Assembly (NCBI GenBank): GCA_963775425.1
Contig: CAVZJB010000016.1
Coordinates: 128,001-192,000, forward strand
Length of the DNA: 64,000 nt
Origin: an uncultured delta proteobacterium
GTDB lineage: Bacteria; Myxococcota; UBA727; VGSZ01
Direction of reading: 5' to 3'
In this document: positions 8,937 to 31,491 of the stretch, piece after piece
Numbering within the stretch: position 1 is the first letter of the stretch
Layout: each line of letters opens with the position of its first letter
Translations under genes and position numbers: made by a program
Notes under the pieces: model-generated
What the model was told of the DNA's origin: nothing
The model's input: the letters and a program-made list of their open reading frames with translations, nothing else
The model's database searches: none

Positions 8937-9758
8937 TCAGCAACACGATGACGTCGACGCGGACCCGCAGCAACCTCCCCCCTGCGGGCGCACCGCGCGG
9001 ATCTCGGCGGAGGCGACGAAGCCCTCGGCGCCGGATCCGGGGAGCCAGTCGCGGATGAAGGAGCGGCTCTCCTCCTTGACGTCGATGACGACGTCGACGA
9101 AGCCGGCTTCCTCGATCATGGCGCGCAGCTCGTCGATCGCGGGCGCGCCCGCGACGCAGCCGGCGAGCGCCCCGGGATCGTCGCGGAGCGCCGCGGGGAT
9201 CGGCGCCGACGCGACGATGTCCGCCACGGCCACGCGGCCCCCGGGGCGCAGCACGCGGAACGCCTCGCGAAACACGGCGCGCTTGTCGGGGGAGAGGTTG
9301 ATGACGCAGTTGGAGATGACGACGTCGGCGCTGCGGTCGGCGAGCGGCAGCCGCTCGATCTCGCCGAGGCGGAGCTCGACGTTCTTGGCGTCGACCCGTG
9401 CCGCGTTCTCGCGAGCCTTCGCGAGCATCTCGGGCGTCATGTCGACCCCGACGACGCGGCCGCCGTCGCCCACCTGCCGCGCCGCGAGGAAGCAATCGAT
9501 GCCCGCGCCGCTGCCGAGGTCGACGACCACCTCGCCGGCGGCGAGCCGGGCGAAGGACAGCGGGGTGCCGCAGCCGAGCCCGAGGTCGGCTCCTTCGGGG
9601 GCGGCGGCGAGGTCGTCGGCGGCATACCCCAAGCGCAGCGACGCCCCCGGCGCGGGCGCGCAGCACCCCGGGCCGCAGCCGCAGGCGCCGTCGGTGCGGG
9701 CGACCTCGGCGTAGTGGGTGCGGACAACGGCACGGATCTCGTCTTCGTTCGTGGCCAT
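8937..9758 (-). CDS. arsM: Arsenite S-adenosylmethionine methyltransferase
   Basis: LGLGCG.P, VVDLGSGAGIDCFLAA, GVDMTPEML, ISNCVINLSPDK, GCVAGA; Cys-rich termini. Confidence 0.93.
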   Translation of the reverse strand: MATNEDEIRAVVRTHYAEVARTDGACGCGPGCCAPAPGASLRLGYAADDLAAAPEGADLGLGCGTPLSFARLAAGEVVVDLGSGAGIDCFLAARQVGDGGRVVGVDMTPEMLAKARENAARVDAKNVELRLGEIERLPLADRSADVVISNCVINLSPDKRAVFREAFRVLRPGGRVAVADIVASAPIPAALRDDPGALAGCVAGAPAIDELRAMIEEAGFVDVVIDVKEESRSFIRDWLPGSGAEGFVASAEIRAVRPQGGGCCGSASTSSCC

Positions 9759-22887: not shown

Positions 22888-23029
22888 AGACGGACCCACG
22901 CCGCGGCCTTCGGCGACGTCCTCGAGCGGTCGGGGGGAGTTCCCGGTGGACCTGGAGCGGTCCCACCGAAAAGCGCTTGCCGGCCTGAGCGTTCGCCAAA
23001 GAAAAACCCCGCTTCTCAGCGGGGTTGCT
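22888..23029 (+). pseudogene. 3' remnant of a second related tyrosine integrase
   Basis: Encodes HAAAFGDVLER...PKKNP, matching the C-terminus of integrase 30113-31399, at the same position relative to the att copy. Confidence 0.8.
23001..23026 (-). terminator. Intrinsic terminator after the tRNA 3' duplicate
   Basis: AACCCCGCT-tctc-AGCGGGGTT stem followed by a T-run on the minus strand. Confidence 0.7.
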
Positions 23030-23074
23030 TGGAGCGGGAAACGAGATTCGAACTCGCGACTTCAACCTTGGCAA
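23030..23074 (-). repeat. att site: 45-bp duplicate of the tRNA-Gly 3' half
   Basis: TGGAGCGGGAAACGAGATTCGAACTCGCGACTTCAACCTTGGCAA is identical to 31417-31461. Confidence 0.95.
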
Positions 23075-23172
23075 ACGAGCCAGGGGGTTCCGCGTGACGA
23101 GGGGATTCGTGGAGAATCAACAGCTTAGCTGACGTCGACACCACGGACCGCCACCCCAGATCACGCGGAATT

Positions 23173-23237
23173 TCCCACCGAATTGGGACTGCCCGGTGGG
23201 AGCGGCGAACGCTCCCACCGGGCGCTCGCTCCCACCG
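23173..23237. repeat. Cluster of TCCCACCG motifs (putative integrase arm-type sites) with a 14-bp inverted repeat
   Basis: Copies at 23173, 23194 (inverted), 23213 and 23230; perfect stem 23191-23204/23210-23223. Confidence 0.65.
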
Positions 23238-23357
23238 ACGACGGTGCCGACGAGCGCGTTTGGACGTCGAGGTGCGAAGGCGCGACGCGATTGAGGTCGG
23301 CCTTGCACTCTCGGGTTCGCGTCGCGGCGACGCGCCATGCTCTGTACACTCACCCTG

Positions 23358-23693
23358 GTGAAGCGCTTCGCCCTCCTCCTGCTCGTCATCGGCGGGCCCG
23401 CCTGCAGCGCGCGTCCTGACCCCAACTGCGGGCAGCCATCCGGTTGCGCGGCCGACGAGCTCTGCGTGTTCAGCGCGGCCTATGGGTTCCTGGAAGACGG
23501 CAACCCGAACCTCATCAACACCGATTCCTATTCCTGCGTGCCGCTGCCCGAGCGTTGCTCGGTGTCGACGTGCGAATGCCTCGAGTGTCGCGGCGAGTTC
23601 GCGTGCGATGCGGGGCCGTCGTGCACATGCGGCATAGGCGGTGCGTGCAGCGACGGCCCGCACGGCGCCATCGTCACGGCGTTCAAAGAATAG
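23358..23693 (+). CDS. Cys-rich putative lipoprotein
   Basis: KRFALLLLVIGGPAC signal/lipobox; more than 10 Cys in about 95 mature residues. Confidence 0.65.
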   Translation: MKRFALLLLVIGGPACSARPDPNCGQPSGCAADELCVFSAAYGFLEDGNPNLINTDSYSCVPLPERCSVSTCECLECRGEFACDAGPSCTCGIGGACSDGPHGAIVTAFKE

Positions 23694-23785
23694 GTGCGCC
23701 TCATCGGCGGCTAGCGTCCGCCGAAGTCGAAGCGGCAGTCCGCGACGTCGTCCGCCGGGTCGCCGGCGTCGAGCAGAATGAGTGG

Positions 23786-23968
23786 TCACGAGAGAGCTAG
23801 GCCCGGCGCACCGCCCTGGCACTCGGGGCACTTCCGCTGGAAGTTGTCGGAACCGTTCGAGCCGTAGCTGTGTCCGCAGTCTCCGCAACGCAGCTCGTAC
23901 ACGCGCTGCAGATGATCGTTGCCAGCGAGTCCGGTCGCTCGAACGACCTCCTGGCGGTTGCGGTTCAC
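23786..23968 (-). CDS. Small zinc-ribbon protein (in frame with the upstream ParE-like ORF)
   Basis: LRCGDCGHSYGSNGSDNFQRKCPECQGG (two CxxC); the reading frame is open upstream to the TAG at 24068. Confidence 0.65.
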   Translation of the reverse strand: MNRNRQEVVRATGLAGNDHLQRVYELRCGDCGHSYGSNGSDNFQRKCPECQGGAPGLALS

Positions 23969-24067
23969 GAAGCCGGGGGCCGTCGTCGGGTGTTCCGGCG
24001 AGGCGAGCGCGCCGCGTGTCGACGTCGCGCGCTTGCGGAAGCTCGGCGTGATCCCGCGGGTCGCGCC

Positions 24068-24337
24068 CTACACGCCGACGATGGCGACGATGTCGTCGTT
24101 GTACGTGTAGTAGACGTGGTAGCGGCTCGCCCTGAGCAGCATGCGGTGCAGCCCTGGAATCGCGCGCGATGCGTAGCGAATCCCGACGCCGGGCTCGATG
24201 GCGAGCAACGCGATGGCGTCCGCGAGCTCTTCGACGAACAGATTCGGTGCAGCTGGCCGGTTGCTCATCCACCACAGGTCGATGCCGCGGGCATCGTCGT
24301 CAGCCTCGCGCGTCGTGACCACGCGGCGCTTCTTCAT
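24068..24337 (-). CDS. RelE/ParE family toxin, probably truncated by TAG
   Basis: ADDDARGIDLWW..NRPAAPNLFVEEL..PGVG..RMLL..SRYHVYY; stops at V-TAG where V-W is expected. Confidence 0.8.
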   Translation of the reverse strand: MKKRRVVTTREADDDARGIDLWWMSNRPAAPNLFVEELADAIALLAIEPGVGIRYASRAIPGLHRMLLRASRYHVYYTYNDDIVAIVGV

Positions 24338-24561
24338 CGGCGGGCGCGGAGCTCTGCGATCAGGTCCTCGGCAGGGCGGACGCGACCGGCCCCGACGCTC
24401 TCCCACGACTGCTGAAGGTGGGCGTGGAGAGCCGCGCGCTCCTCGGCGTCGAGGTCGTCGCCCTCGTCATCGACCACGAGATCGAGGGTTGTGCCCTCGG
24501 GAAGCAGGGTCGGCTCGTCGACGACGATGCGACCGTTGGAAACGCGTCCCCGAATAGCCAT
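24334..24561 (-). CDS. Putative antitoxin of the ParE-like toxin
   Basis: GRVSNGRIVVDEPTLLPEGT..LDAEERAALH..GRVRPAEDLIAEL; ATGA coupling to the toxin. Confidence 0.75.
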   Translation of the reverse strand: MAIRGRVSNGRIVVDEPTLLPEGTTLDLVVDDEGDDLDAEERAALHAHLQQSWESVGAGRVRPAEDLIAELRARR

Positions 24562-24586
24562 GTCCGATCTTAGCAGCCCCAGGCGG

Positions 24587-25686
24587 TCAAGGCACGCAGC
24601 CCCGAGTCCGGCGACGGCCCTGCCGCATCAGGAGGCCGAGCATTGCCGCTGCCGGCACAGGGGCGGCGCCGCCCGAAGACGCGCACCCGCCGTCGAGCGA
24701 CGCGGCCTCGGCCTGGCTTACGACAACGTCGACGCACACGGGTTCCGCGCGTGCGACGTTGCCGGCCCAGTCCGACGCGGACAGGGAGTAGCACGCACTC
24801 TTGGCCCCGGACGCGGCCGGGATCTGGTCGGTGACCTCGAGGAAGTCGGGCCTCAAGCGATCGAGCGCATGCTCCTCGCCGCCGTCGATCGTGCGGAAGA
24901 CGTCGATGGTGGCGACGCCGTAGTCATCGACTGGCAGGCTCGCGTCGAGCGTGACCACTTTCACGAGGATCCCGTTTGCTTTCGCGACGCTTGCGCCGAT
25001 CAGCGTGAACGGGACCACGCTGGGCGCGGTGACATCGTCGCCGTCGCCCGTGGTCCAAGAGATGTCGTCGATCCCGGATGACGGCGCGAAGTGGAACGCG
25101 ATGTTGGCGTGCGGGGGCAACGGAGGGCCCACGTCGAGGGCGCTCGGGCAGCCGGACCGAGCGCAGCGCGCAGTGTCGGTCCTAATGGTCACGGCGCGCG
25201 GCGCGTCCTCGCCCTCGACCGCGAGGGTGACGGTGAGCTCTTGCGCGGGGTCGGTGCCTGGAGCGATGACGCCGGCGAAGATGGTGTCGGTCGGGATCGT
25301 CGTCGCTGCGATGGGGTTCGCCCAGCTCCACGAGACGTCTCTCGTCGGGATCGGCGCAGGCTCGATACCGCACACACCACTCTCGCACGTCGTCACCACA
25401 TCCGGCCCACCGCAGAGGGCGCACTCGACGAGCTGCGGCCGCAGAGCGCGGTCGCGCTTCGCGTGTCTTCCTCGAGCCGGGCGAGAGAGACCTGGTTGAT
25501 CGCGCCGTCGGGGCCTGGCCCACAGCCCGGGTTGCAAGTGGTCGCGAACGACACCGCCACGCAGTCCGAGGCTGCAGTGCACGTCCGGTCATAGTCATTC
25601 GGATTGAGCGATCCTGGGCCACACCCGGCGTGTAGCGGCCCGACGACGCTTGCAACTACGAGCGCGAGAGCGTCGGTGGGGCGCAT
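24587..25686 (-). pseudogene. Cys-rich surface protein with MYXO-CTERM-like tail, frameshifted near 25438
   Basis: N-part MRPTDALALVV..HAGC..YDRTCTAASDCVAV joins ..QLVECALC..CESGVC after a 1-nt shift; C-terminus GGCASSGG..AAMLGLLMRQGRRR. Confidence 0.6.
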
Positions 25687-25731
25687 GAGCAAGCGTAGCT
25701 CGTTCGAGCGCTCGAGGCGAAAGCGAGCGCG

Positions 25732-26661
25732 ATGCGGCAGACTTGCGAGGTGCGACAGCTCGTCACCGGTCTCCTCGTCTTCGGTTTGGGATGCGACCCG
25801 CTATTCGTCGTCGCCGTCGACGCGGGCGCGCCGGGCGATGCGGGCCCCACGGACGCCGGTGTCGGCACCTCCGTCATCGACGGAGGCACCGAGCTGGATG
25901 CGGGGCCGCTTGACTCAGGAGTTGCCCCGGACGCGGGGCTGCCGAGCGAGGACGCAGGTCGCTCTTGCCTGGGCGATTTCAGTAGCGAGGCTTGGCCGTG
26001 CGAAAGTGACGCGGACCTCTGCGACACGATGGGCGACAACAGCAGTATCTCGCCAACTCGTGATTTCATAGAGACATGGTCTCGTGAAGATGCGGCGTAC
26101 TTTGACCTTGATATCCGTGTCGCCGCGCCAGTCTTTACGTTTGGCAGCTCTCAGTTCGCCATCAGCTTGCGCTATGCGGGTGAAGCGAACGACATCGGCC
26201 AGCCTTGTGGTGGGGCGACCCTCGACTTCTCGTCTCGGCTGGTAGACATCCTCGAGCACCCACCACAGTACGTCCCGAACGCGGTGTCTATGGACCTGTC
26301 GCTGGATCCACATGACACGATCTTCTTGGACTCATGTTCAACTCTGATGGTGAGTGAAGACGGGAGAACACTCAGGGTCCACATTCCCCTGAATCCCGGC
26401 GACAGCGTGGACGCGTACCGCGTATCCCTCGCAGGCAGTCCTTGCGACGAGCCCGATGGGTTGGCGCCAACGGCCTTCATTGTGCCCAAGGGGGAGAGCA
26501 GGATGGGGCGACGTTCGTGTCGCTCTGCGACGCCCAATGCCCCACGGGATGACGACGGCGGTTGCGCTGCGCCAGCCTTACAGCTGCTGCGGGAGAAAGC
26601 AGAGATCGTCGATTCGCTGAGCCCGATGAGCTGGGCCGTCGTGTGGAACGATCGGCGTTGA
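25732..26661 (+). CDS. Putative lipoprotein with DAG-repeat linker
   Basis: LLVFGLGC lipobox, repeated DAG/DGG/DSG, Cys-containing domain; noticeably lower GC; 3' end may be frameshifted at the G-run near 26490. Confidence 0.65.
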   Translation: MRQTCEVRQLVTGLLVFGLGCDPLFVVAVDAGAPGDAGPTDAGVGTSVIDGGTELDAGPLDSGVAPDAGLPSEDAGRSCLGDFSSEAWPCESDADLCDTMGDNSSISPTRDFIETWSREDAAYFDLDIRVAAPVFTFGSSQFAISLRYAGEANDIGQPCGGATLDFSSRLVDILEHPPQYVPNAVSMDLSLDPHDTIFLDSCSTLMVSEDGRTLRVHIPLNPGDSVDAYRVSLAGSPCDEPDGLAPTAFIVPKGESRMGRRSCRSATPNAPRDDDGGCAAPALQLLREKAEIVDSLSPMSWAVVWNDRR

Positions 26662-26686
26662 ATCCGACGACCCGCGACTTCGTTGC

Positions 26687-27181
26687 TCAAGGCCCCGTCG
26701 CGGTGAGCGCGATCGCGACGCTGCCTTGCGACGACGGTGGAAGGTTGGCCGCGTCCGTGGAGATCCGCAGCACGGCCGAGCCCGGCCCCTCAGAGATATT
26801 GGAGGCGACGACTCCAACCACGGCCGTGGACACGGCAGGCACCGAAACTTCCACGGGCGGTGCGAGCGCGAACACCACGCCGGTCCCGCCCGGCAGCTCG
26901 ACGTCGACGATCACGCTGACGCTGAGCTGGCCTGTGTTTGTAAGGGTGATGTCGCGACGGGTCGGCGACGAAACCTCGCCGAAGTCGAGCGCGCATCCCG
27001 TCACGCCCCCGATGACGCGGCCGTTGACCTCGTTCGCAGGCTCGGCGCACGCGTCAACCGAAAGGGGACCCGGGGAGAAGCACTGACCCACGTCAGGGCA
27101 ACTGTCCGGAGCGCACCCGGCGCCGCCACCAAGGAACGCCGACAGCGCGGCGGCGACGAGGCGCATCCCTACGGCGGTCAT
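26687..27181 (-). CDS. Putative lipoprotein with Ig-like (ASH/choice-of-anchor D-like) domain
   Basis: Signal + GAGC; LDFGEV...ITLTNTG...AVLRISTDAAN...IALTATG. Confidence 0.65.
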   Translation of the reverse strand: MTAVGMRLVAAALSAFLGGGAGCAPDSCPDVGQCFSPGPLSVDACAEPANEVNGRVIGGVTGCALDFGEVSSPTRRDITLTNTGQLSVSVIVDVELPGGTGVVFALAPPVEVSVPAVSTAVVGVVASNISEGPGSAVLRISTDAANLPPSSQGSVAIALTATGP

Positions 27182-27954
27182 GGCAGGAACGCCGGTGGGC
27201 ACCCCACCAGCCAGTCGGGGCACACGGCGTCGGGCACGTTCGCGTAGGTGTCGACGATCGTGGGCGTGCCGCCCACGACCTCGACAAGTGACGCCTGCAG
27301 CCGCTGGCAACCCTCGGGACAATCCTCGGACCAATTGAGGAAGCGATAGCGGGCGCTGTCTCCGTCGGCGTCGACGGAGAACAGGTCGATCGTGGGACCC
27401 TCTTCGAAGTCGTCGGGCCCGACGTGGCTCTCCGACAGCGCCGTCACGCCGGCGAGGACCGATGCGGTCTTGTTGGGTTGAAAGATCCCGGGCCACGAGA
27501 GCAGCCCGCCGACCTCGTTGCCGAGGTTCGGCGGCACGGCGTAGGGCTGCACGCTGCCGTCAAACGGCGCCATCAAGGCGGTGAGCGTTCGCGTGCACGC
27601 AGCCGCGTCGGCGTCGACGCACATGACGAAGGCGTTTTGCGCGAGGCGCGCCTGGCGGACGTCGAAGTCGAGCTCTGGGAAAGCTGCGCGCGCGGCGGGG
27701 ACGTCGCGAGCCACGCGGGCGTAGGTGTCGTCGTCAGCGATCCACCGCTCGGGCGTGTGCACGAGCGCGATGTACTCGAGCTCGACGTCGCCCGGGCGCG
27801 GGGTGGACGCCGCTTCCTCGGCGGTCGGTAGCGCGCTGAGATCGAGGCCCGCGACATCGCCGGGGGTGCCGGCGTCCGGCGTCGCGGGCGACTCGCTCGA
27901 CGGGGTACACGCGCCGGTGAGCGTGAACGCGATCGCGACAGCGACAAGCTGCAT
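27178..27954 (-). CDS. Putative lipoprotein
   Basis: MQLVAVAIAFTLTGAC lipobox; WSEDCPEGC motif; ATGA-coupled to the next gene. Confidence 0.65.
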   Translation of the reverse strand: MQLVAVAIAFTLTGACTPSSESPATPDAGTPGDVAGLDLSALPTAEEAASTPRPGDVELEYIALVHTPERWIADDDTYARVARDVPAARAAFPELDFDVRQARLAQNAFVMCVDADAAACTRTLTALMAPFDGSVQPYAVPPNLGNEVGGLLSWPGIFQPNKTASVLAGVTALSESHVGPDDFEEGPTIDLFSVDADGDSARYRFLNWSEDCPEGCQRLQASLVEVVGGTPTIVDTYANVPDAVCPDWLVGCPPAFLP

Positions 27955-28069
27955 CCCCGTCACGGTGTCACGCGCCGGGCGCGTCGAGCTTAGAAGCCGC
28001 ATGGATGGTCCCATTGGTTGCACGTTCAGCTTACCTCACACACGAAGGTCTGCCCGCCGTTGCGCTTCC

Positions 28070-28263
28070 GACATTGCCAGGGACCTCGCGCCGCACGTCG
28101 CTGTTGCGACACGCGCTCTGCGCGTGCGGCGAGCGATGGCCGAGGGCGCCTTTGCGCTCTCGACCATCGCGTCCCGGCCCGTTGCGCTCCTGCGCAACAC
28201 GCGAAGCGTGCCGGCTGCCGAGCGCCCCTGTTGGGCGTGAGGCAGGTGGTCCTGGCAAATGTC
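28070..28263. other. Highly structured non-coding element (candidate ncRNA or folded ssDNA origin/promoter)
   Basis: Closing stem 28070-28085/28248-28263 encloses four arms (28089-28131, 28133-28170, 28174-28214, 28215-28245), paired by eye. Confidence 0.6.
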
Positions 28264-28463
28264 CTCACCATGTCCACATGTGATTTTTCAAGCCTTTGGC
28301 TCACTTGAAAATGTCCTCTCTGGTCCCACGTCATGAGGACACGACAAGGCAGTCGTGGTGCACGCCGTCGTCGTCGGTGCGCGCGGTGCGCGTGGTGTCC
28401 GGCGCGATGCCGGGTGCATCGCTGTGGTTGTCGATGACCTCGGTCGACGTCGACCCGCGTATC

Positions 28464-29483
28464 TCAGGTTTTGACGACGACGACGCGGAAGCCCACGTCC
28501 GTGAGCACGTCCATGATCTCGGCGGCGAGGATCTCGCGCGCGGCTCCCGTCGCTGACCGTGCACGGCCGAGATGGAGCACGGCCCTCTCGTTGGACACGT
28601 CGAGCGGCGATATCAAAGCTGCCGGCGCTCGCTCGCGCGGCGCGGTCTCGCGCGCCTTCTTGATCTCCGCGCGCAGCCTCGTGATGCCCCACCCCTCTGC
28701 GGCAGCGAGGCCGGCGAGGCGCCGAACGATCCGCTCGGCGCGCGGCTGGAATCCGTCGCCGTCGCCGTCGCTTCCTTCAGCAAGGCGAAGCGCATCCTCC
28801 TCGCGCAACACGTTGTAGCTCGTGATCAGCTCGGACACGTGGCTGAACGCGAGGCCCGCGTGACGCTCCACGTCGACGACCGGGCGCCGCGTGACCGGAT
28901 CGATCGCTGCCGCACCCGTCGCGTCCATCCGCTGCTTCTGCACCTTCACCTCGACGAGCGCGTCCTTGAGCCACTGCGGCGCTTCGTTGAGCTGGAGGTA
29001 GCGGTTCAACTGCCGTCGGTTCCATCCGAGGCTCGCCGCCACTTGGTCCGCGCTCGCGCCGTTCTCGATGGCGCGCGCCGCACCCTCGGCGATCTCGAGC
29101 GGCGCGAGGTCGGCGCGGTTCACGTTCTCAGCGAGCTGCAGCACGGGCAGGAGCGCATCGTCGACCTCCACGGCCATGGATGCGATGCGACGGAAGCGCG
29201 CGTCATCGGGTTGCTCGCGTGCAAGCTGACTCACCGCGGCGAAGCGCCGGTGTCCGCCGATGATCTCGTAGCGGTCGCCCGCCGCGCGCACGACGATGGG
29301 CTGCAAGAGGCCGTTCTCGCGGATGCTCTTCTTCAGCTCGGCGAAAGGCTCTTTGTCGAGGTGAAGCCGCGGGTTGCTTGTCGACGGAACGACCCGATCG
29401 AGCGGCAGGTGGACGAGCTCGCCGCCAACACGCTCGCGAGCGTTCATGTTGATCTTGTCCGTGACCTCGGTGTCCTCGTGCAT
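28464..29483 (-). CDS. ParB/RepB/Spo0J family protein (orphan, no ParA)
   Basis: NPR, LKKSIRENGLLQPIVVR, YEIIGGHRRF (Arg patch), LAENVNRADL, HTH. Confidence 0.92.
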   Translation of the reverse strand: MHEDTEVTDKINMNARERVGGELVHLPLDRVVPSTSNPRLHLDKEPFAELKKSIRENGLLQPIVVRAAGDRYEIIGGHRRFAAVSQLAREQPDDARFRRIASMAVEVDDALLPVLQLAENVNRADLAPLEIAEGAARAIENGASADQVAASLGWNRRQLNRYLQLNEAPQWLKDALVEVKVQKQRMDATGAAAIDPVTRRPVVDVERHAGLAFSHVSELITSYNVLREEDALRLAEGSDGDGDGFQPRAERIVRRLAGLAAAEGWGITRLRAEIKKARETAPRERAPAALISPLDVSNERAVLHLGRARSATGAAREILAAEIMDVLTDVGFRVVVVKT

Positions 29484-29719
29484 AGCGCCTCCGTTTCGGG
29501 ACGATGTGTCCCTCTAAAGGGACACGTCGGAGGCTCCGCGCCTCGCGCTCAGCGCGACACGCTGGACCGATCACATGAAGCCATCGCCGTCGACGTCGCC
29601 CTCAGCGAAGCGGGCGACGTCGACGCGGCCATCGCCGGAGACCGAGCCCTAAACATCTTCATCACTCGCCGCTGAGCAATGCGCCCTCGATCTCCGACGT
29701 GTCCTTGTAGGAGGTCAGC

Positions 29720-29896
29720 ATGCTCAACCTCATCACCGTGTCGACCGCGGCGGAGCGGCTCGCGGTCTCGAAGTCCATGATCCGAAAGCTCTTGCGGCTC
29801 GGCCGGCTCACGCCGGTCCGCATCGGCCGCTGCGTGCGCGTGCGGCTCGCCGACGTCGATGCTTTGGCGGCGGCGGGTGAGCGGCGCGCGACGTGA
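29720..29896 (+). CDS. Excisionase-like HTH_17 protein (58 aa, not in the ORF track)
   Basis: AGGAGG RBS; MLNLITVSTAAERLAVSKSMIRKLLRLGRLTPVRIGRCVRVRLADV. Confidence 0.85.
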   Translation: MLNLITVSTAAERLAVSKSMIRKLLRLGRLTPVRIGRCVRVRLADVDALAAAGERRAT

Positions 29897-30648
29897 ACGC
29901 GGCCTACCTGACAAGCGCACAGGCCGCCGCGCACCTCGGGCTCAGCGTGAACGCGCTGCGCATGGCGCTGTGCCGCGGCACCCTCGCGCCGACCGGCAGG
30001 ATCGGCCGGCGCCTGTTCTTCACCGTCGATGACCTGCATCGCCAGTTGAGCACCCACGGCGCTAGGATCGAGGCGCGGTCCGTGGTGCTCGACTCGGCGA
30101 CGGAGACTGCACATGCCGAGAAGAGGAACGCCGACGGAGATCCCGGGGATCACCCGGGACGGAACGAAGTGGATCTTGCGGGCCGTGGTGAAGGGCCCGA
30201 ACGGAAGGAGGTACGAGAAACAGAAGCAGATGGAGGGCGCGCACGAGAACACGAAGCGCGCCGAGGTGCGGCTGCTCGAGGACGAGCTCGAGAAGCTGCG
30301 CGAGGAGCTCCGGCAGGAAGCGAAGGCCGAAGCGAAGGGGACGTCGACGAGAGAGACCGTTGGGGCCTTCGCGCCGCAATGGCTCGAGCATACGGCGACG
30401 ACCGGGAAGACCAGGAAGCACGTCGTGGAGAAGCGGTTGCATCACCTCGAGCACTTCATCCTGCCGTTCATCGGCGACAAAGAGCTGCGCGCTCTGCGTC
30501 GGTCCGACGTCGCCGCATGGATGCAGGCCGCGGCGGGCCTCCGCCAACAAAGCGGCAAGCTCTATGGGCGCGTCACGCTCATGGGCGCCTGGTCGACGCT
30601 GCGGGCGATGCTCAGGCGCGCGGTGATCTTGCGCGACCTGGAGCATGA
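29893..30648 (+). CDS. Second excisionase-like HTH protein (ORF runs out of frame into the integrase)
   Basis: GTGA-coupled; YLTSAQAAAHLGLSVNALR....GTL..GRRLFFTVDDL in the first ~55 aa; the remainder overlaps int. Confidence 0.65.
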   Translation: MNAAYLTSAQAAAHLGLSVNALRMALCRGTLAPTGRIGRRLFFTVDDLHRQLSTHGARIEARSVVLDSATETAHAEKRNADGDPGDHPGRNEVDLAGRGEGPERKEVRETEADGGRAREHEARRGAAARGRAREAARGAPAGSEGRSEGDVDERDRWGLRAAMARAYGDDREDQEARRGEAVASPRALHPAVHRRQRAARSASVRRRRMDAGRGGPPPTKRQALWARHAHGRLVDAAGDAQARGDLARPGA

Positions 30649-31399
30649 CCCGACGTCGGGGATCGTGTTCGACATCGGCGATCACATGGGCGGCGAGAGC
30701 CGGCCCGCGAAGAAGCCGAAGGACGCGCTCACCCTCGACGAGGTCGGTCGCCTCATCGACGCCGCCAAGGACGAAGCGCTCGACGTGCGGGCGATGATCG
30801 TGGTGCAGGTGGCCACGGGCATGCGCTTCTGCGAGGTCTCCGCGCTCGAGTGGCGGGACATCGACCTCGAGAAGGCTTCGCTGCGCATCGAGCGCTCGCA
30901 GGTCGGCGGCGTGGCAGGCGCGCCGAAGACCGAGTCCACGCGACGGCGCGTGTACTTGCCGGACGTGGTTGTCGAGGTCCTGCGCAGCCACAAGGCCGAG
31001 CAGGAGCGCGACCCTGGACCGCCGTGCGACGTGCCCGGGCTCGTGTTTCCGTCGAGGGCGGGCACGTACCGGACGCCGGCCATGCTCACGAAGCCGCTCA
31101 CGCGTTGCTGCCAGATCGCGGGCATCGACAAGCGGCTCTCGTCGCACGGGCTGCGGCGCACCGCCAACGACCTGCTGAGGCGCGCGAACGGCGACACCGT
31201 CGTCCGCGCGATGATCGGGCACGCCACGAGCGAGATGACGCGCCTGTACAGCAACGTGGACCACGACGAGCGCGCCAGGGCGCACGCCGCGGCGTTCGGG
31301 GATGTCCTCGAGCGGGCAGTGGGAACGAAGGGTGGGACTCTCGTCGAGTCCCACCGAGAATTGAGGCCGGACCGAAAACGGCCAAAGAAAAACCCCTGA
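30113..31399 (+). CDS. Tyrosine recombinase / phage-type integrase
   Basis: TGMRFCEVSALEWRDID, APKT, HGLRRT, MIGH, TRLYS: catalytic R-K-H-R-H-Y residues intact; GGAG RBS. Confidence 0.95.
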   Translation: MPRRGTPTEIPGITRDGTKWILRAVVKGPNGRRYEKQKQMEGAHENTKRAEVRLLEDELEKLREELRQEAKAEAKGTSTRETVGAFAPQWLEHTATTGKTRKHVVEKRLHHLEHFILPFIGDKELRALRRSDVAAWMQAAAGLRQQSGKLYGRVTLMGAWSTLRAMLRRAVILRDLEHDPTSGIVFDIGDHMGGESRPAKKPKDALTLDEVGRLIDAAKDEALDVRAMIVVQVATGMRFCEVSALEWRDIDLEKASLRIERSQVGGVAGAPKTESTRRRVYLPDVVVEVLRSHKAEQERDPGPPCDVPGLVFPSRAGTYRTPAMLTKPLTRCCQIAGIDKRLSSHGLRRTANDLLRRANGDTVVRAMIGHATSEMTRLYSNVDHDERARAHAAAFGDVLERAVGTKGGTLVESHRELRPDRKRPKKNP

Positions 31400-31413
31400 G
31401 GTCATCAGGGGTT
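31385..31413 (-). terminator. Intrinsic terminator of tRNA-Gly, supplied by the element
   Basis: AACCCCTGA-ggtca-TCAGGGGTT stem, then TTTCTTT on the minus strand. Confidence 0.75.
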
Positions 31414-31416
31414 CGG

Positions 31417-31491
<75 letters not shown>

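What the first reader, a model, noticed from the sequence alone, without database searches (positions are those of the whole stretch)
28070..28263. ~194-nt almost fully paired multi-arm structure downstream of parB: candidate new ncRNA or ssDNA origin/promoter
Seen, paired by eye: closing stem GACATT-GCCAGG-g-ACC / GGT-CCTGGC-a-AATGTC encloses four arms. (a) Three-way junction CGCCGCAC/GTGCGGCG holding GTCGC-tgtt-GCGAC and GCGC-tct-GCGC. (b) 16-bp hairpin GCGATGG-c-CGAGGGCGC-cttt-GCGCTCTCG-a-CCATCGC. (c) Three-way junction CCGGC/GCCGG holding GTTGCGC-tcct-GCGCAAC and ACGC-gaa-GCGT. (d) CTGCC-gag-CGCCC-ctgtt-GGGCG-tga-GGCAG with a GAG/TGA internal loop. The arms abut with 0-3 nt linkers and no credible ORF covers the region. 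Known: GCGAAGC is an exceptionally stable ssDNA mini-hairpin, and sso/Frpo elements are multi-hairpin ssDNA folds. Inference: a functional folded nucleic acid of the element; strand and RNA-versus-DNA nature are unresolved. High GC raises chance pairing.
Basis: partly seen in the sequence, partly recalled or inferred. Interest (0 to 1): 0.78.

Follow-up and report, generated by a model that had tools for sequence, protein, structure and literature searches.

The report
Conserved folded DNA/RNA core of defence islands
A 190-base stretch that folds into a many-armed hairpin structure is the one part shared by a family of small mobile gene islands in a few related soil and groundwater bacteria, and it matches no described RNA or DNA element, but what it does is still inferred.

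Summary
Window 28070-28263 folds exactly as described (RNA -127 kcal/mol, z -7.7; DNA parameters z -8.4). It is not a chance palindrome. There are 25 copies: 21 in 4 related genomes and 4 on metagenome contigs. They keep the fold through compensatory changes (94-96% of cells paired, 19-34 of 68 pairs covary). Nothing in Rfam 15 matches, and nothing in the plasmid, phage or viral collections does.

The folding strand is the + strand (G·T 36-61 against A·C 12). The fold lies inside an 8.4-kb element integrated at tRNA-Gly. Each copy is followed by a roughly 90-nt array of short boxes whose sequence differs between copies. In 10 of 25 copies the array abuts the 3' end of a genuine ParB gene.

The fold is the only part common to islands that carry either tyrosine or serine recombinases and variable defence or toxin cargo. 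It is better conserved than the ParB coding sequence.

Best reading (about 0.4): a cis-acting single-stranded DNA fold of the excised island, most like a single-strand origin or priming site, beside a ParB-bound centromere or iteron array. The main rival (about 0.33) is a + strand structured non-coding RNA. No ssDNA-producing machinery and no transcription signals were found. The function remains unproven.

The parts
28070..28263 (+). Multi-arm fold. Closing stem 28070-28087 with 28246-28263; Y-shaped arm a 28089-28131; hairpin b 28133-28170; Y-shaped arm c 28174-28214; hairpin d 28215-28245.
   Evidence: MFE and z-scores. Covariation. + strand preference. CM R2 scores this copy at 166.7 bits.
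28259..28277 (.). Box 1: two tandem direct copies of the copy-specific motif (ATGTCCTC at 28259-28266, ATGTCCAC at 28270-28277). It starts inside the last bases of the closing stem.
   Evidence: The same position holds a different motif in other copies.
28278..28310 (.). Relatively A+T-rich spacer holding a small inverted repeat (TTCAAG 28287-28292 with CTTGAA 28304-28309).
   Evidence: Read. It is not specially stable as a fold.
28311..28341 (.). Box 2 (ATGTCCTC, 28311-28318) and inverted box 3 (GAGGACA, 28335-28341). They flank a stretch that contains the partly conserved CGTCATG.
   Evidence: Boxes 1, 2 and 3 change together from copy to copy.
28464..29483 (-). ParB/RepB/Spo0J-family gene (339 aa: ParB_N, HTH, GGHRRF arginine patch). 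It converges on the box array.
   Evidence: Same position and strand in 10 of 25 copies.
29662..30252 (-). 196-aa ORF with no family match. It sits where other copies carry an M23 peptidase and an orphan 360-390-aa protein.
   Evidence: no hits. Synteny.
30113..31399 (+). Tyrosine integrase, on the same strand as the fold.
   Evidence: Phage_integrase 8.6e-21. Tyrosine-integrase hits on the same strand within 5.5 kb in 10 of 25 copies.
31417..31491 (-). tRNA-Gly(GCC). Its 3' part, 31417-31461, is the right-hand attachment repeat.
23030..23074 (.). Left-hand attachment repeat, a 45-nt exact copy of 31417-31461. The integrated element therefore spans about 23030-31461 (8.4 kb).
27178..28023 (-). 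First cargo-side ORF (281 aa by the longest start). A lipoprotein-like signal peptide follows the ATG near 27953. No family match.
   Evidence: The signal peptide was read by eye.

Best explanation
The 190-nt element is a cis-acting fold of one DNA strand (the + strand). It is the common core of a family of tRNA-integrated genomic islands. The proposed mechanism has four steps.

1. The island excises as a circle, using its tyrosine or serine recombinase.
2. The neighbouring array of copy-specific boxes is bound as double-stranded DNA by the island's own ParB-type protein, or by another sequence-specific protein. This acts as a centromere or iteron array with an A+T-rich spacer.
3. When the + strand becomes single-stranded, the adjacent G+C-rich sequence snaps into a closed five-helix structure with two Y-shaped junctions.
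4. A factor common to all the islands, probably a host enzyme such as RNA polymerase or primase, recognises this shape. It starts or organises synthesis of the complementary strand, as single-strand origins (sso/ssi) do.

Shown: the fold, its conservation by compensatory change, its strand, its fixed position next to the box array, and its presence in islands with unrelated recombinases and cargo.

Inferred: that the strand is DNA and not RNA, that ssDNA is produced at all, that the boxes bind ParB, and that priming is the activity.
For: 1. The structure is under selection.
- In 16 copies, 94.2% of cells are paired, 19 of 68 pairs change on both sides, and the covariation score is 0.197 against 0.088 in shuffles. 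For these three measures 0 of 500 shuffles reach the observed value (for further pair types, 39 of 500 do). Slid controls pair at most 44.6%.
- In 25 copies aligned to the model, 95.7% of cells are paired and 34 of 68 pairs show two Watson-Crick types that differ on both sides.

2. One strand is favoured.
- G·T outnumbers A·C by 36 to 12.
- When the structure is instead derived from the - strand, that strand shows only 6-8 G·T against 15-21 A·C.
- The + strand folds better in 14 of 15 copies.

3. The loops look like DNA hairpin loops and lack the usual RNA motifs. Of 120 hairpin loops in 23 copies:
- 110 are closed by 5'C-3'G;
- 40 are triloops, 15 of them GNA;
- of 51 tetraloops, 13 are GNNA, only 2 are GNRA and none is UNCG.
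GNA triloops with sheared purine pairs are the hallmark of the ssDNA folds at Streptomyces telomeres (PMC7205883, passages read).

4. No transcription signals were found.
- There are no sigma-70-like promoters or intrinsic terminators in 27800-28600.
- The 5' flanks of the copies are not conserved.

5. It behaves like a cis site and not like a gene.
- It is the only part shared by islands with tyrosine integrases (10 of 25), large serine recombinases (7 of 25), ParB (10 of 25) and unrelated cargo.
- It is always followed in register by the box array.

6. It is more conserved than the coding DNA beside it. Comparing the window copy with the others:
- fold 0.70-0.76 identity;
- ParB codon positions 1+2 0.65-0.68;
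- ParB codon position 3 0.47-0.58;
- box array 0.34-0.53.
This fits a shared (host) reader for the fold and island-specific readers for the boxes.

7. Its size and make-up resemble a proven single-strand origin in an integrated element. ICEBs1 sso1 is about 200 bp, has three stem-loops, works in one orientation only, and depends on structure more than sequence (PMC4595007, passages read).
Against: 1. No source of ssDNA was found. The 94.5%-complete genome gave no match to VirB4, VirD4, Relaxase, TrwC, MobA_MobL, TraI_2, Rep_trans or Zot. The Rep_1 search is uninformative because its control matched nothing anywhere.

2. The islands examined carry no recognisable replication or transfer gene. 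The conserved orphan protein gave no clue.

3. The loop argument is statistical and rests on predicted loops.

4. G·T asymmetry and covariation fit RNA just as well. The authors of a large motif survey state that ssDNA and RNA motifs cannot be told apart reliably by computation (PMC5737381, passages read).

5. The copies are related, and many are close kin. Cell counts therefore overstate the number of independent events.

6. Relative to the tRNA end of the island, the fold points one way in tyrosine-type islands and the other way in serine-type islands. No single replication or transfer direction relative to the attachment site is therefore implied.
Confidence: 0.4

Rival explanations
1. It is a structured non-coding RNA transcribed from the + strand. 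That is the same direction as the integrase and convergent with the parB operon. It would act as a regulator or cofactor of island maintenance, excision or immunity, and might end at the palindrome that follows the box array.
For: - Covariation and G·U tolerance on the + strand are the classic signature of an RNA.
- Most covarying bacterial motifs found this way are taken to be RNAs (PMC5737381, passages read).
- In 3 copies the fold lies 0.4-1.5 kb upstream of the integrase on the same strand.
- A hairpin-forming palindrome follows the boxes in most copies.
- The closing stem pairs an ACCUCC stretch with GGAGGU, i.e. an anti-Shine-Dalgarno-like with a Shine-Dalgarno-like sequence.
Against: - There is no promoter-like site, and no conserved sequence 5' of the fold.
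- No intrinsic terminator was scored.
- There are almost no GNRA or UNCG loops, and triloops are in excess.
- The conserved bases lie in the helices, not in the loops or junctions.
- No Rfam family matches.
- The ATG that follows the GGAGGT is not conserved, and the short ORFs behind it are in different frames.
Confidence: 0.33
2. It works as double-stranded DNA. It would be a cluster of nested inverted repeats bound by dimeric proteins, or extruded as a cruciform. One example would be a boundary that stops ParB clamps spreading from the box array into the cargo.
For: - It lies directly against a probable ParB loading array.
- The sequence of the helices is strongly conserved.
- Both strands fold almost equally well in the window copy.
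Against: - Nested arms closed by a 13-bp stem 165 nt apart, and three-way junctions, are not what dimer-binding sites need.
- Compensatory changes keep pairing but not sequence.
- The 3:1 to 5:1 excess of G·T over A·C is not expected if both strands must fold, or if neither must.
Confidence: 0.1
3. It is a selfish or inert repeat (MITE- or REP-like) that merely hitch-hikes in these islands.
For: - It is multi-copy: 8, 6, 5 and 2 copies in the four genomes.
- Several copies sit at contig ends.
- Shortened variants exist, of 158, 141, 107 and 102 nt.
Against: - The islands whose ends were mapped each hold a single copy, always in register with the box array. The exception is one tandem pair on C18.
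- It was never found outside recombinase-bearing contexts where the flanks were available.
- It is better conserved than the neighbouring coding positions.
- The shortened variants keep the closing stem, one Y arm and hairpin d, which looks like a functional core.
Confidence: 0.07

Closest known systems
Single-strand origins of rolling-circle plasmids and of ICEBs1 (sso1), and plasmid ssi priming signals
   Same: A non-coding stretch of about 200 nt in a mobile or integrated element. One strand folds into several stem-loops. It is orientation-specific. Function depends on shape more than sequence and on host enzymes (PMC4595007, passages read). Here the size, the multi-hairpin fold, the strand asymmetry and the higher conservation than island-specific parts all agree.
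   Different: No Rep or relaxase, and no double-strand origin or oriT, was found in the islands or in the genome. The closed architecture with two three-way junctions is more elaborate than the three independent stem-loops of sso1. There is no sequence similarity to any plasmid or phage record.
Folded 3' overhangs of archetypal Streptomyces telomeres ('rabbit ears' or 'clover leaf')
   Same: About 180 nt of tightly packed palindromes. Loops are 3 nt long, of GNA type, with sheared purine pairs. Compensatory changes occur in the palindromes. The structure is recognised as ssDNA for priming (PMC7205883, passages read; PMC5449611 and PMC4513846, abstracts in the search listing only). Here 15 of 40 triloops are GNA, 110 of 120 loops are closed by C-G, and the arms are Y-shaped.
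   Different: This element is internal to a circularisable island flanked by attachment repeats, not at the end of a linear replicon. The lineage is unrelated, and terminal-protein genes were not looked for.
P1/F-type plasmid partition sites placed just downstream of parB (applies to the neighbouring box array, not to the fold)
   Same: Short boxes in direct and inverted orientation lie immediately 3' of a genuine ParB gene. Box sequences differ between coexisting elements. The comparison with P1 parS and F sopC is recalled, not tested.
   Different: There is no ParA gene next to it. 15 of 25 copies have boxes but no adjacent ParB. Binding is untested.
Plasmid-associated candidate ssDNA/RNA motifs of Weinberg et al. 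2017 (ARRPOF, GEBRO, PAGEV)
   Same: Moderately long (223-349 nt) covarying motifs in mobile DNA that may act in replication, possibly as ssDNA (PMC5737381, passages read).
   Different: No Rfam family matched at E <= 10 over the fold. Whether those three motifs are in Rfam 15 was not checked. The host lineage and context (integrated islands, not plasmids) also differ.
Frpo/ssi ssDNA promoters of conjugative plasmid leading regions
   Same: An ssDNA fold in a mobile element that host RNA polymerase can use (PMC11541004, title and start of abstract in the search listing only; the mechanism is recalled).
   Different: Those are single long imperfect hairpins that mimic -35/-10 boxes next to oriT in conjugative plasmids. 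Here there are no promoter hexamers, the fold is many-armed, and no conjugation genes were detected.

Membership tests
Any Rfam 15 family | Match to a curated covariance model | tested here: not met
   No match overlapping 28070-28263 at E <= 10. At gathering score the whole window gives only two tRNAs.
Single-strand origin (sso) / ssi signal | A non-coding stretch of about 150-250 nt with extensive intrastrand pairing | tested here: met
   194 nt. z -7.7 with RNA parameters and -8.4 with DNA parameters. Non-coding by indel pattern.
Single-strand origin (sso) / ssi signal | Works on one strand only (orientation-specific) | tested here: inconclusive
   The sequence evidence favours the + strand: G·T 36 against A·C 12, and a better fold in 14 of 15 copies. 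Function in one orientation is untested.
Single-strand origin (sso) / ssi signal | Sits on an element that makes ssDNA (Rep or relaxase, with a dso or oriT) | tested here: not met
   No Relaxase, TrwC, MobA_MobL, TraI_2, Rep_trans, VirB4, VirD4 or Zot in the genome. The Rep_1 control was silent. Novel enzymes cannot be excluded.
Single-strand origin (sso) / ssi signal | Conserved sso sequence motifs (recombination site RSB, CS-6 loop) | not tested
   These motifs are only recalled, and no sequence from memory was used. No similarity to any plasmid record by blastn.
Single-strand origin (sso) / ssi signal | Lowers ssDNA accumulation or primes the complementary strand | not testable with these tools
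   Needs a bench assay.
Streptomyces-type telomere fold | Lies at the physical end of a linear replicon | tested here: not met
   It is internal to an 8.4-kb element bounded by 45-nt direct repeats, and likewise internal in three other mapped islands.
Streptomyces-type telomere fold | Packed palindromes with 3-nt GNA loops | tested here: inconclusive
   15 of 40 triloops are GNA and 110 of 120 loops are closed by C-G. However, TCT and other pyrimidine loops are just as common.
Frpo-type ssDNA promoter | One long imperfect hairpin carrying -35/-10-like boxes, in a conjugative leading region | tested here: not met
   Five-helix branched fold. No promoter-like hexamers. No T4SS or relaxase.
Retron msr-msd | A closing a1/a2 stem with an adjacent reverse transcriptase gene | tested here: not met
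   A closing stem is present, but the three RVT_1 genes of the genome lie far from every copy.
Integron attC | Simple hairpins repeated between cassettes, next to an IntI integrase | tested here: not met
   Branched fold. One copy in each island whose ends were mapped. The recombinases are tRNA-targeting tyrosine or large serine enzymes.
IS110 bridge/seek RNA | DEDD recombinase next door, and loops complementary to target and donor | tested here: not met
   The recombinases are of tyrosine or serine type. In 4 of 4 islands with mapped att sites, module-to-att matches are no longer than chance.
ParB-parS partition site (box array only) | A genuine ParB/Spo0J-family gene adjacent | tested here: met
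   TIGR00180 at 95 and 91 bits against a cut-off of 58. GGHRRF patch present. Adjacent in 10 of 25 copies.
ParB-parS partition site (box array only) | Repeated specific sites that ParB binds | not testable with these tools
   Boxes occur in direct and inverted orientation at fixed offsets and vary between copies. Binding is untested.

The most novel reading that the evidence does not exclude
The double-Y fold is the universal cis-acting handle of an undescribed way of replicating or moving genomic islands through a single-stranded DNA intermediate. This would occur in a bacterial lineage with no detectable type IV secretion system, relaxase, rolling-circle Rep or filamentous-phage genes. The shape would be read by a host enzyme or by the orphan 360-390-aa protein. 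The neighbouring copy-specific box array would give each coexisting island its own identity. Tyrosine- and serine-recombinase islands carrying BREX, GmrSD, RHS and other cargo would then all depend on this one 190-nt structure.
Probability: 0.15. Interest if true: 0.85.

Novelty: new variant of a known kind. Interest (0 to 1): 0.55.

Why it matters
Defence and toxin islands integrated at tRNA genes are common, but how most of them replicate or move after excision is unknown. Here a family of such islands (8 to 62 kb) swaps its recombinase and its cargo, yet always keeps one 190-nt fold plus a variable box array. This points to the cis-acting site on which their propagation depends and gives a concrete handle for experiments.

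If the fold is ssDNA, it would be a rare example of a DNA structure more complex than a hairpin. It would also extend sso-like or telomere-like folds to an uncultured high-G+C lineage. If it is RNA, it is a new large structured RNA class tied to island biology. Either way it deserves a covariance model in public libraries.

The limits are that it is known from only four related genomes and four metagenome contigs, and that no function has been shown.

Tried and rejected
1. Known RNA family. Rfam was searched at E <= 10 and at gathering score. Nothing matched.

2. Homologues in plasmids, phages and viral contigs.
- blastn 'distant' with window 28000-28480 found nothing.
- An IUPAC pattern found 0 viral contigs.
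- Eleven viral loci with distant ParB relatives (29-37% identity) gave no model match better than E 0.2.

3. The first genome contigs pattern was too strict. It fits only 3 of my 21 copies and returned 3 places in one MAG. That scan says little about distribution.

4. Wider distribution with model R2.
- Hits in 4 of 38 genomes of the order, which is the same set as the class.
- Hits in 4 of 151 genomes in a sample of the phylum, with stricter filters.
- The 'class' search repeated the 'order' set and added nothing.

5. The first covariance model (R1) was built on the RNAalifold consensus. It had a poor structure and was not used.

6. RNA evidence. No RNA holder was listed for 27600-29000, and the single DNA run held 0.05 of the words.

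7. Retron. The RT genes are not near any copy.

8. Conjugative leading region or Frpo, inovirus, rolling-circle plasmid. The marker families were not found.

9. HUH Y1 transposase. Three genes were found. One lies inside the C3 island about 6 kb from the fold, but it has no relatives in the other loci. No link.

10. Bridge-RNA-like guide. No complementarity to att sites beyond chance.

11. Small ORF behind the GGAGGT of the closing stem. The start codon is not conserved and the frames differ.

12. DnaA-box or sigma-54 readings of the boxes were considered by eye and dropped. The boxes differ between copies, whereas a host protein would need a constant site.

13. The orphan 360-390-aa protein.
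- No Pfam, PHROG or NCBIfam match.
- Atlas gave no usable hit.
- The AlphaFold model is all-helical with mean pLDDT 61.
- No Foldseek PDB match at E <= 0.001.

14. Box zone as part of the fold. Its folding energy is unremarkable, with z from +0.4 to -5.2 and a median of about -1.5 (mononucleotide shuffles, 60 each, 20 copies).

15. Earlier notes of this scan: none for this place or sequence.

16. Supplementary files of the papers were not available. Supplementary tables and figures of PMC5737381 may hold motif drawings that could be compared.
Full report
OBSERVATION. A closing stem encloses a Y-shaped arm (28089-28131), a long hairpin (28133-28170), a second Y-shaped arm (28174-28214) and a hairpin with an internal loop (28215-28245). 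None of 200 dinucleotide-preserving shuffles did as well in any of the four folding runs:
- + strand, RNA parameters: -127.0 kcal/mol, z -7.67.
- - strand, RNA parameters: -122.4 kcal/mol, z -6.93.
- + strand, DNA parameters: -78.2 kcal/mol, z -8.40.
- - strand, DNA parameters: -76.6 kcal/mol, z -7.60.

No Rfam 15 family matches the fold at E <= 10. At gathering score the whole window holds only two tRNAs.

IT IS A FAMILY.
- blastn found 6 copies in the window's own genome, at 73-85% identity.
- blastn found copies in 4 of the 11 genomes of its family.
- I aligned 16 copies (A4) and derived a consensus structure from the majority of the single-sequence folds.
- I built covariance model R2 from that alignment and structure. 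An earlier model on the RNAalifold consensus was poor and was dropped.
- R2 finds 21 loci: 8 in G000 (one weak, 38.6 bits), 6 in G001, 5 in G002 and 2 in G003.
- R2 finds none in the other 34 genomes of the order, which is the same set as the class.
- R2 finds none in the other 147 genomes of a 151-genome sample of the phylum.
- One metagenome pattern scan gave 11 loci, of which 4 are true members by R2.
- Plasmid, phage and viral-contig collections gave nothing.

Shortened natural variants of 158, 141, 107 and 102 nt keep the closing stem, hairpin d and, in those read in full, one Y arm. The two Y arms share the same junction sequence pattern, so the full form looks like an internal duplication.

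THE FOLD IS SELECTED. On the MAFFT alignment, which is not fitted to any structure:
- 94.2% of 1044 pair cells are paired. The shuffle mean is 87.6%, and 0 of 500 shuffles reach the observed value.
- When the partners are slid by 1-3 columns, at most 44.6% are paired.
- 19 of 68 pairs change on both sides. The shuffle mean is 13.1, and 0 of 500 shuffles reach 19.
- For further pair types, 39 of 500 shuffles reach the observed value.

On the 25 distinct copies aligned to the model (two reverse-strand rows dropped), 95.7% of 1567 cells are paired. In that set 34 of 68 pairs show two Watson-Crick types that differ on both sides. This alignment leans towards the model. The copies are kin, so cells are not independent events.

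No reading frame is kept. The 14 full-length copies differ from the window copy by 57 one-base indel runs.

The fold is also better conserved than the gene beside it. Comparing the window copy with the other ParB-linked copies:
- fold: 0.70-0.76 identity (0.54 for the 107-nt variant);
- ParB codon positions 1+2: 0.65-0.68;
- ParB codon position 3: 0.47-0.58;
- box array: 0.34-0.53.

WHICH STRAND. G·T pairs outnumber A·C mismatches by 36 to 12 in A4. In the 25 copies the count is 61 to 12, spread over 25 against 8 pair columns. I then derived the structure from folds of the - strand, to remove the bias of the folding program. On that structure the - strand shows 6-8 G·T against 15-21 A·C. The + strand folds better in 14 of 15 copies. 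The folded strand is therefore the + strand. That is the sense strand of the integrase and the antisense strand of parB.

CONTEXT IN THE WINDOW. A 45-nt exact repeat of the 3' part of tRNA-Gly (31417-31461) recurs at 23030-23074. The fold therefore lies inside an 8.4-kb integrated element. From right to left the element holds:
- tRNA-Gly (- strand);
- a tyrosine integrase, 30113-31399 (+ strand);
- a 196-aa ORF with no family match;
- ParB, 28464-29483 (- strand). It carries a GGHRRF arginine patch;
- the box array and the fold;
- about 5 kb of ORFs with no family match.

CONTEXT ACROSS COPIES. Some flanks are short, so these counts are lower bounds.
- In 10 of 25 copies a ParB gene ends 75-210 nt beyond the fold, on the opposite strand. 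In one more copy it lies 2.5 kb away.
- In seven of these ten copies, an M23 peptidase and an orphan 360-390-aa protein stand upstream of ParB in the same operon.
- In 10 of 25 copies a tyrosine-integrase hit lies 0.4-5.5 kb further on, on the fold's strand. Wherever a tRNA gene was called in these loci, it lies next to the integrase.
- In 7 of 25 copies a large serine recombinase starts 380-530 nt on the other side, on the opposite strand. Where the flank is long enough, that gene abuts a tRNA.

Other islands whose ends were mapped:
- G2_C6: 14.6 kb.
- G0_C3: about 10 kb.
- G0_C9: 61.8 kb. It carries BREX genes, GmrSD, ThiF/E2, UvrD/PD-(D/E)XK, IS66 and IS21.

Cargo elsewhere includes an RHS-repeat protein, SNF2 and DEAD helicases, a protein kinase, DUF2357/PDDEXK_7 and HSDR_N-AAA proteins. 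The fold plus its box array is the only part common to all these islands.

THE BOX ARRAY. Every copy is followed in register by short boxes:
- two tandem direct boxes begin in the last bases of the closing stem;
- a relatively A+T-rich spacer follows;
- a third direct box lies near +62;
- an inverted box lies near +87;
- one subtype has three inverted boxes at 10-nt spacing.

The box sequence differs between copies: ATGTCCTC in the window, and TGTCAC, CGTCCTC, GGACCAT, GATGCCA and others elsewhere. All the boxes of one copy change together. The zone has no unusual folding energy.

Arrays of this kind, placed just after a genuine ParB gene, are most simply protein-binding sites on duplex DNA, i.e. 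a centromere or iteron array. ParB is the obvious candidate binder. This is inference. The likeness to P1- and F-type partition sites is recalled, not tested.

After the boxes, most copies carry a short palindrome. It may terminate the parB operon.

RNA OR DNA. This cannot be settled by computation, as the authors of a large motif survey also state (PMC5737381, passages read). Several observations lean towards ssDNA.
- Of 120 predicted hairpin loops in 23 copies, 110 are closed by 5'C-3'G.
- 40 of them are triloops, 15 of GNA type.
- Of 51 tetraloops, 13 are GNNA, only 2 are GNRA and none is UNCG.
- GNA triloops with sheared purine pairs mark the folded ssDNA of Streptomyces telomeres (PMC7205883, passages read).
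- There is no promoter-like or terminator-like site.
- The 5' flanks of the copies are unrelated.
- The conserved bases sit in the helices, not in the loops or junctions.

Against ssDNA, I found nothing that would make it.
- VirB4, VirD4, Relaxase, TrwC, MobA_MobL, TraI_2, Rep_trans and Zot gave no match in this 94.5%-complete genome.
- The Rep_1 search had a silent control.
- Three RT genes and three Y1-transposase genes show no link to the copies.
- The orphan protein is all-helical, with no structural or family match.
- It occurs only in the same 4 of 401 genomes searched.
- No RNA sequencing run holds the region, which is no evidence either way.

MECHANISM PROPOSED (confidence about 0.4). 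After excision, the island circle is handled at a composite site. Island-specific proteins bind the box array on duplex DNA. The adjoining + strand, once unwound or displaced, folds into the closed double-Y structure. A factor shared by all the islands, probably a host enzyme, recognises that structure to prime or organise complementary-strand synthesis.

The nearest proven analogue is the roughly 200-bp, three-stem-loop, orientation-specific sso1 of the integrated element ICEBs1, where structure matters more than sequence (PMC4595007, passages read). The origin of plasmid pRN1 is also reported to need 166 bp downstream of the replication operon (PMC4234260, abstract in the search listing only).

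Rivals:
- a + strand structured RNA (0.33);
- a duplex or cruciform site, for example a boundary for ParB spreading (0.10);
- an inert repeat (0.07).

A bridge-RNA-like guide is unlikely. In 4 of 4 islands with mapped att sites, the module matches the att site no better than chance.

VERDICT. The element is real, under selection for its fold, strand-specific, undescribed, and the common core of a family of tRNA-integrated defence and toxin islands. The 'functional folded nucleic acid of the element' part holds. The 'ssDNA origin' part is the best but unproven reading. The 'ssDNA promoter' part is not supported. The element is known only from a narrow uncultured lineage. Interest 0.55.

Noticed in passing
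window 23030-23074 and 31417-31461; also 22995-23010 and 31381-31396: A 45-nt exact direct repeat of the tRNA-Gly 3' part bounds an 8.4-kb integrated element. A second 16-nt exact repeat lies 20-21 nt to the left of each copy.
   Followed up: partly
L010 17167-17627 (G000:C3, about 261166-261626): The far end of the C3 island carries five tandem copies of a 63-nt (last copy 45-nt) att-like repeat of the tRNA-Met 3' region, with a 104-nt period. This is an unusual multiplied attachment site.
   Followed up: no
G000:C9 4962-66815 (loci L083, L084, L085, L045): A 61.8-kb island integrated at tRNA-Pro. It carries a BREX system (BrxB, BrxC, PglZ, BrxL), GmrSD, ThiF/E2-like genes, a UvrD/PD-(D/E)XK pair, IS66 and IS21, and a second, longer ParB paralogue. 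No conjugation or phage structural family was seen among the 25 of 35 matched families that were listed.
   Followed up: partly
L009 15515-15698 and 17011-17192 (G000:C18, last 2 kb of the contig): Two copies of the fold stand in tandem 1.5 kb apart, with a DUF429 gene between them. Four copies (C16 start, C5, C18 and G002:C223) lie within 1.2 kb of a contig end. Where this could be judged (C16 start, C18, G002:C223), the end lies on the 5' side of the fold. This may reflect assembly breaks at the repeat or real variation there.
   Followed up: no
window 28081-28086 and 28247-28252; all copies, alignment A4 columns 12-17 and 183-188: The closing stem pairs a nearly invariant ACCTCC with GGAGGT. 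These resemble the anti-Shine-Dalgarno and Shine-Dalgarno sequences. The window copy has GGTGGT instead. The ATG that follows in some copies is not conserved.
   Followed up: partly
L046 10027-10223 (G000:C15): A divergent member (38.6 bits) keeps the architecture but has a different closing-stem sequence. It lies 1.3 kb upstream of an integrase-like gene. More distant relatives may therefore escape model R2.
   Followed up: no
L059, just 5' of the copy at 9206-9398 (- strand): One copy (G3_C46) has a perfect TATAAT about 12 nt upstream of the closing stem. No other copy shows it.
   Followed up: no
G000:C3 259095-260156 (L010 15096-16154): A Y1 (HUH) transposase-like ORF with an HVH motif lies inside the C3 island, about 6 kb from the fold. 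Its C-terminal 21-23 residues recur four times at about 150-nt spacing in L009 (9053-9573).
   Followed up: partly
window 27953-28023 (- strand): The ORF next to the fold starts with a lipoprotein-like signal peptide and lipobox (read by eye). It has no family match.
   Followed up: no
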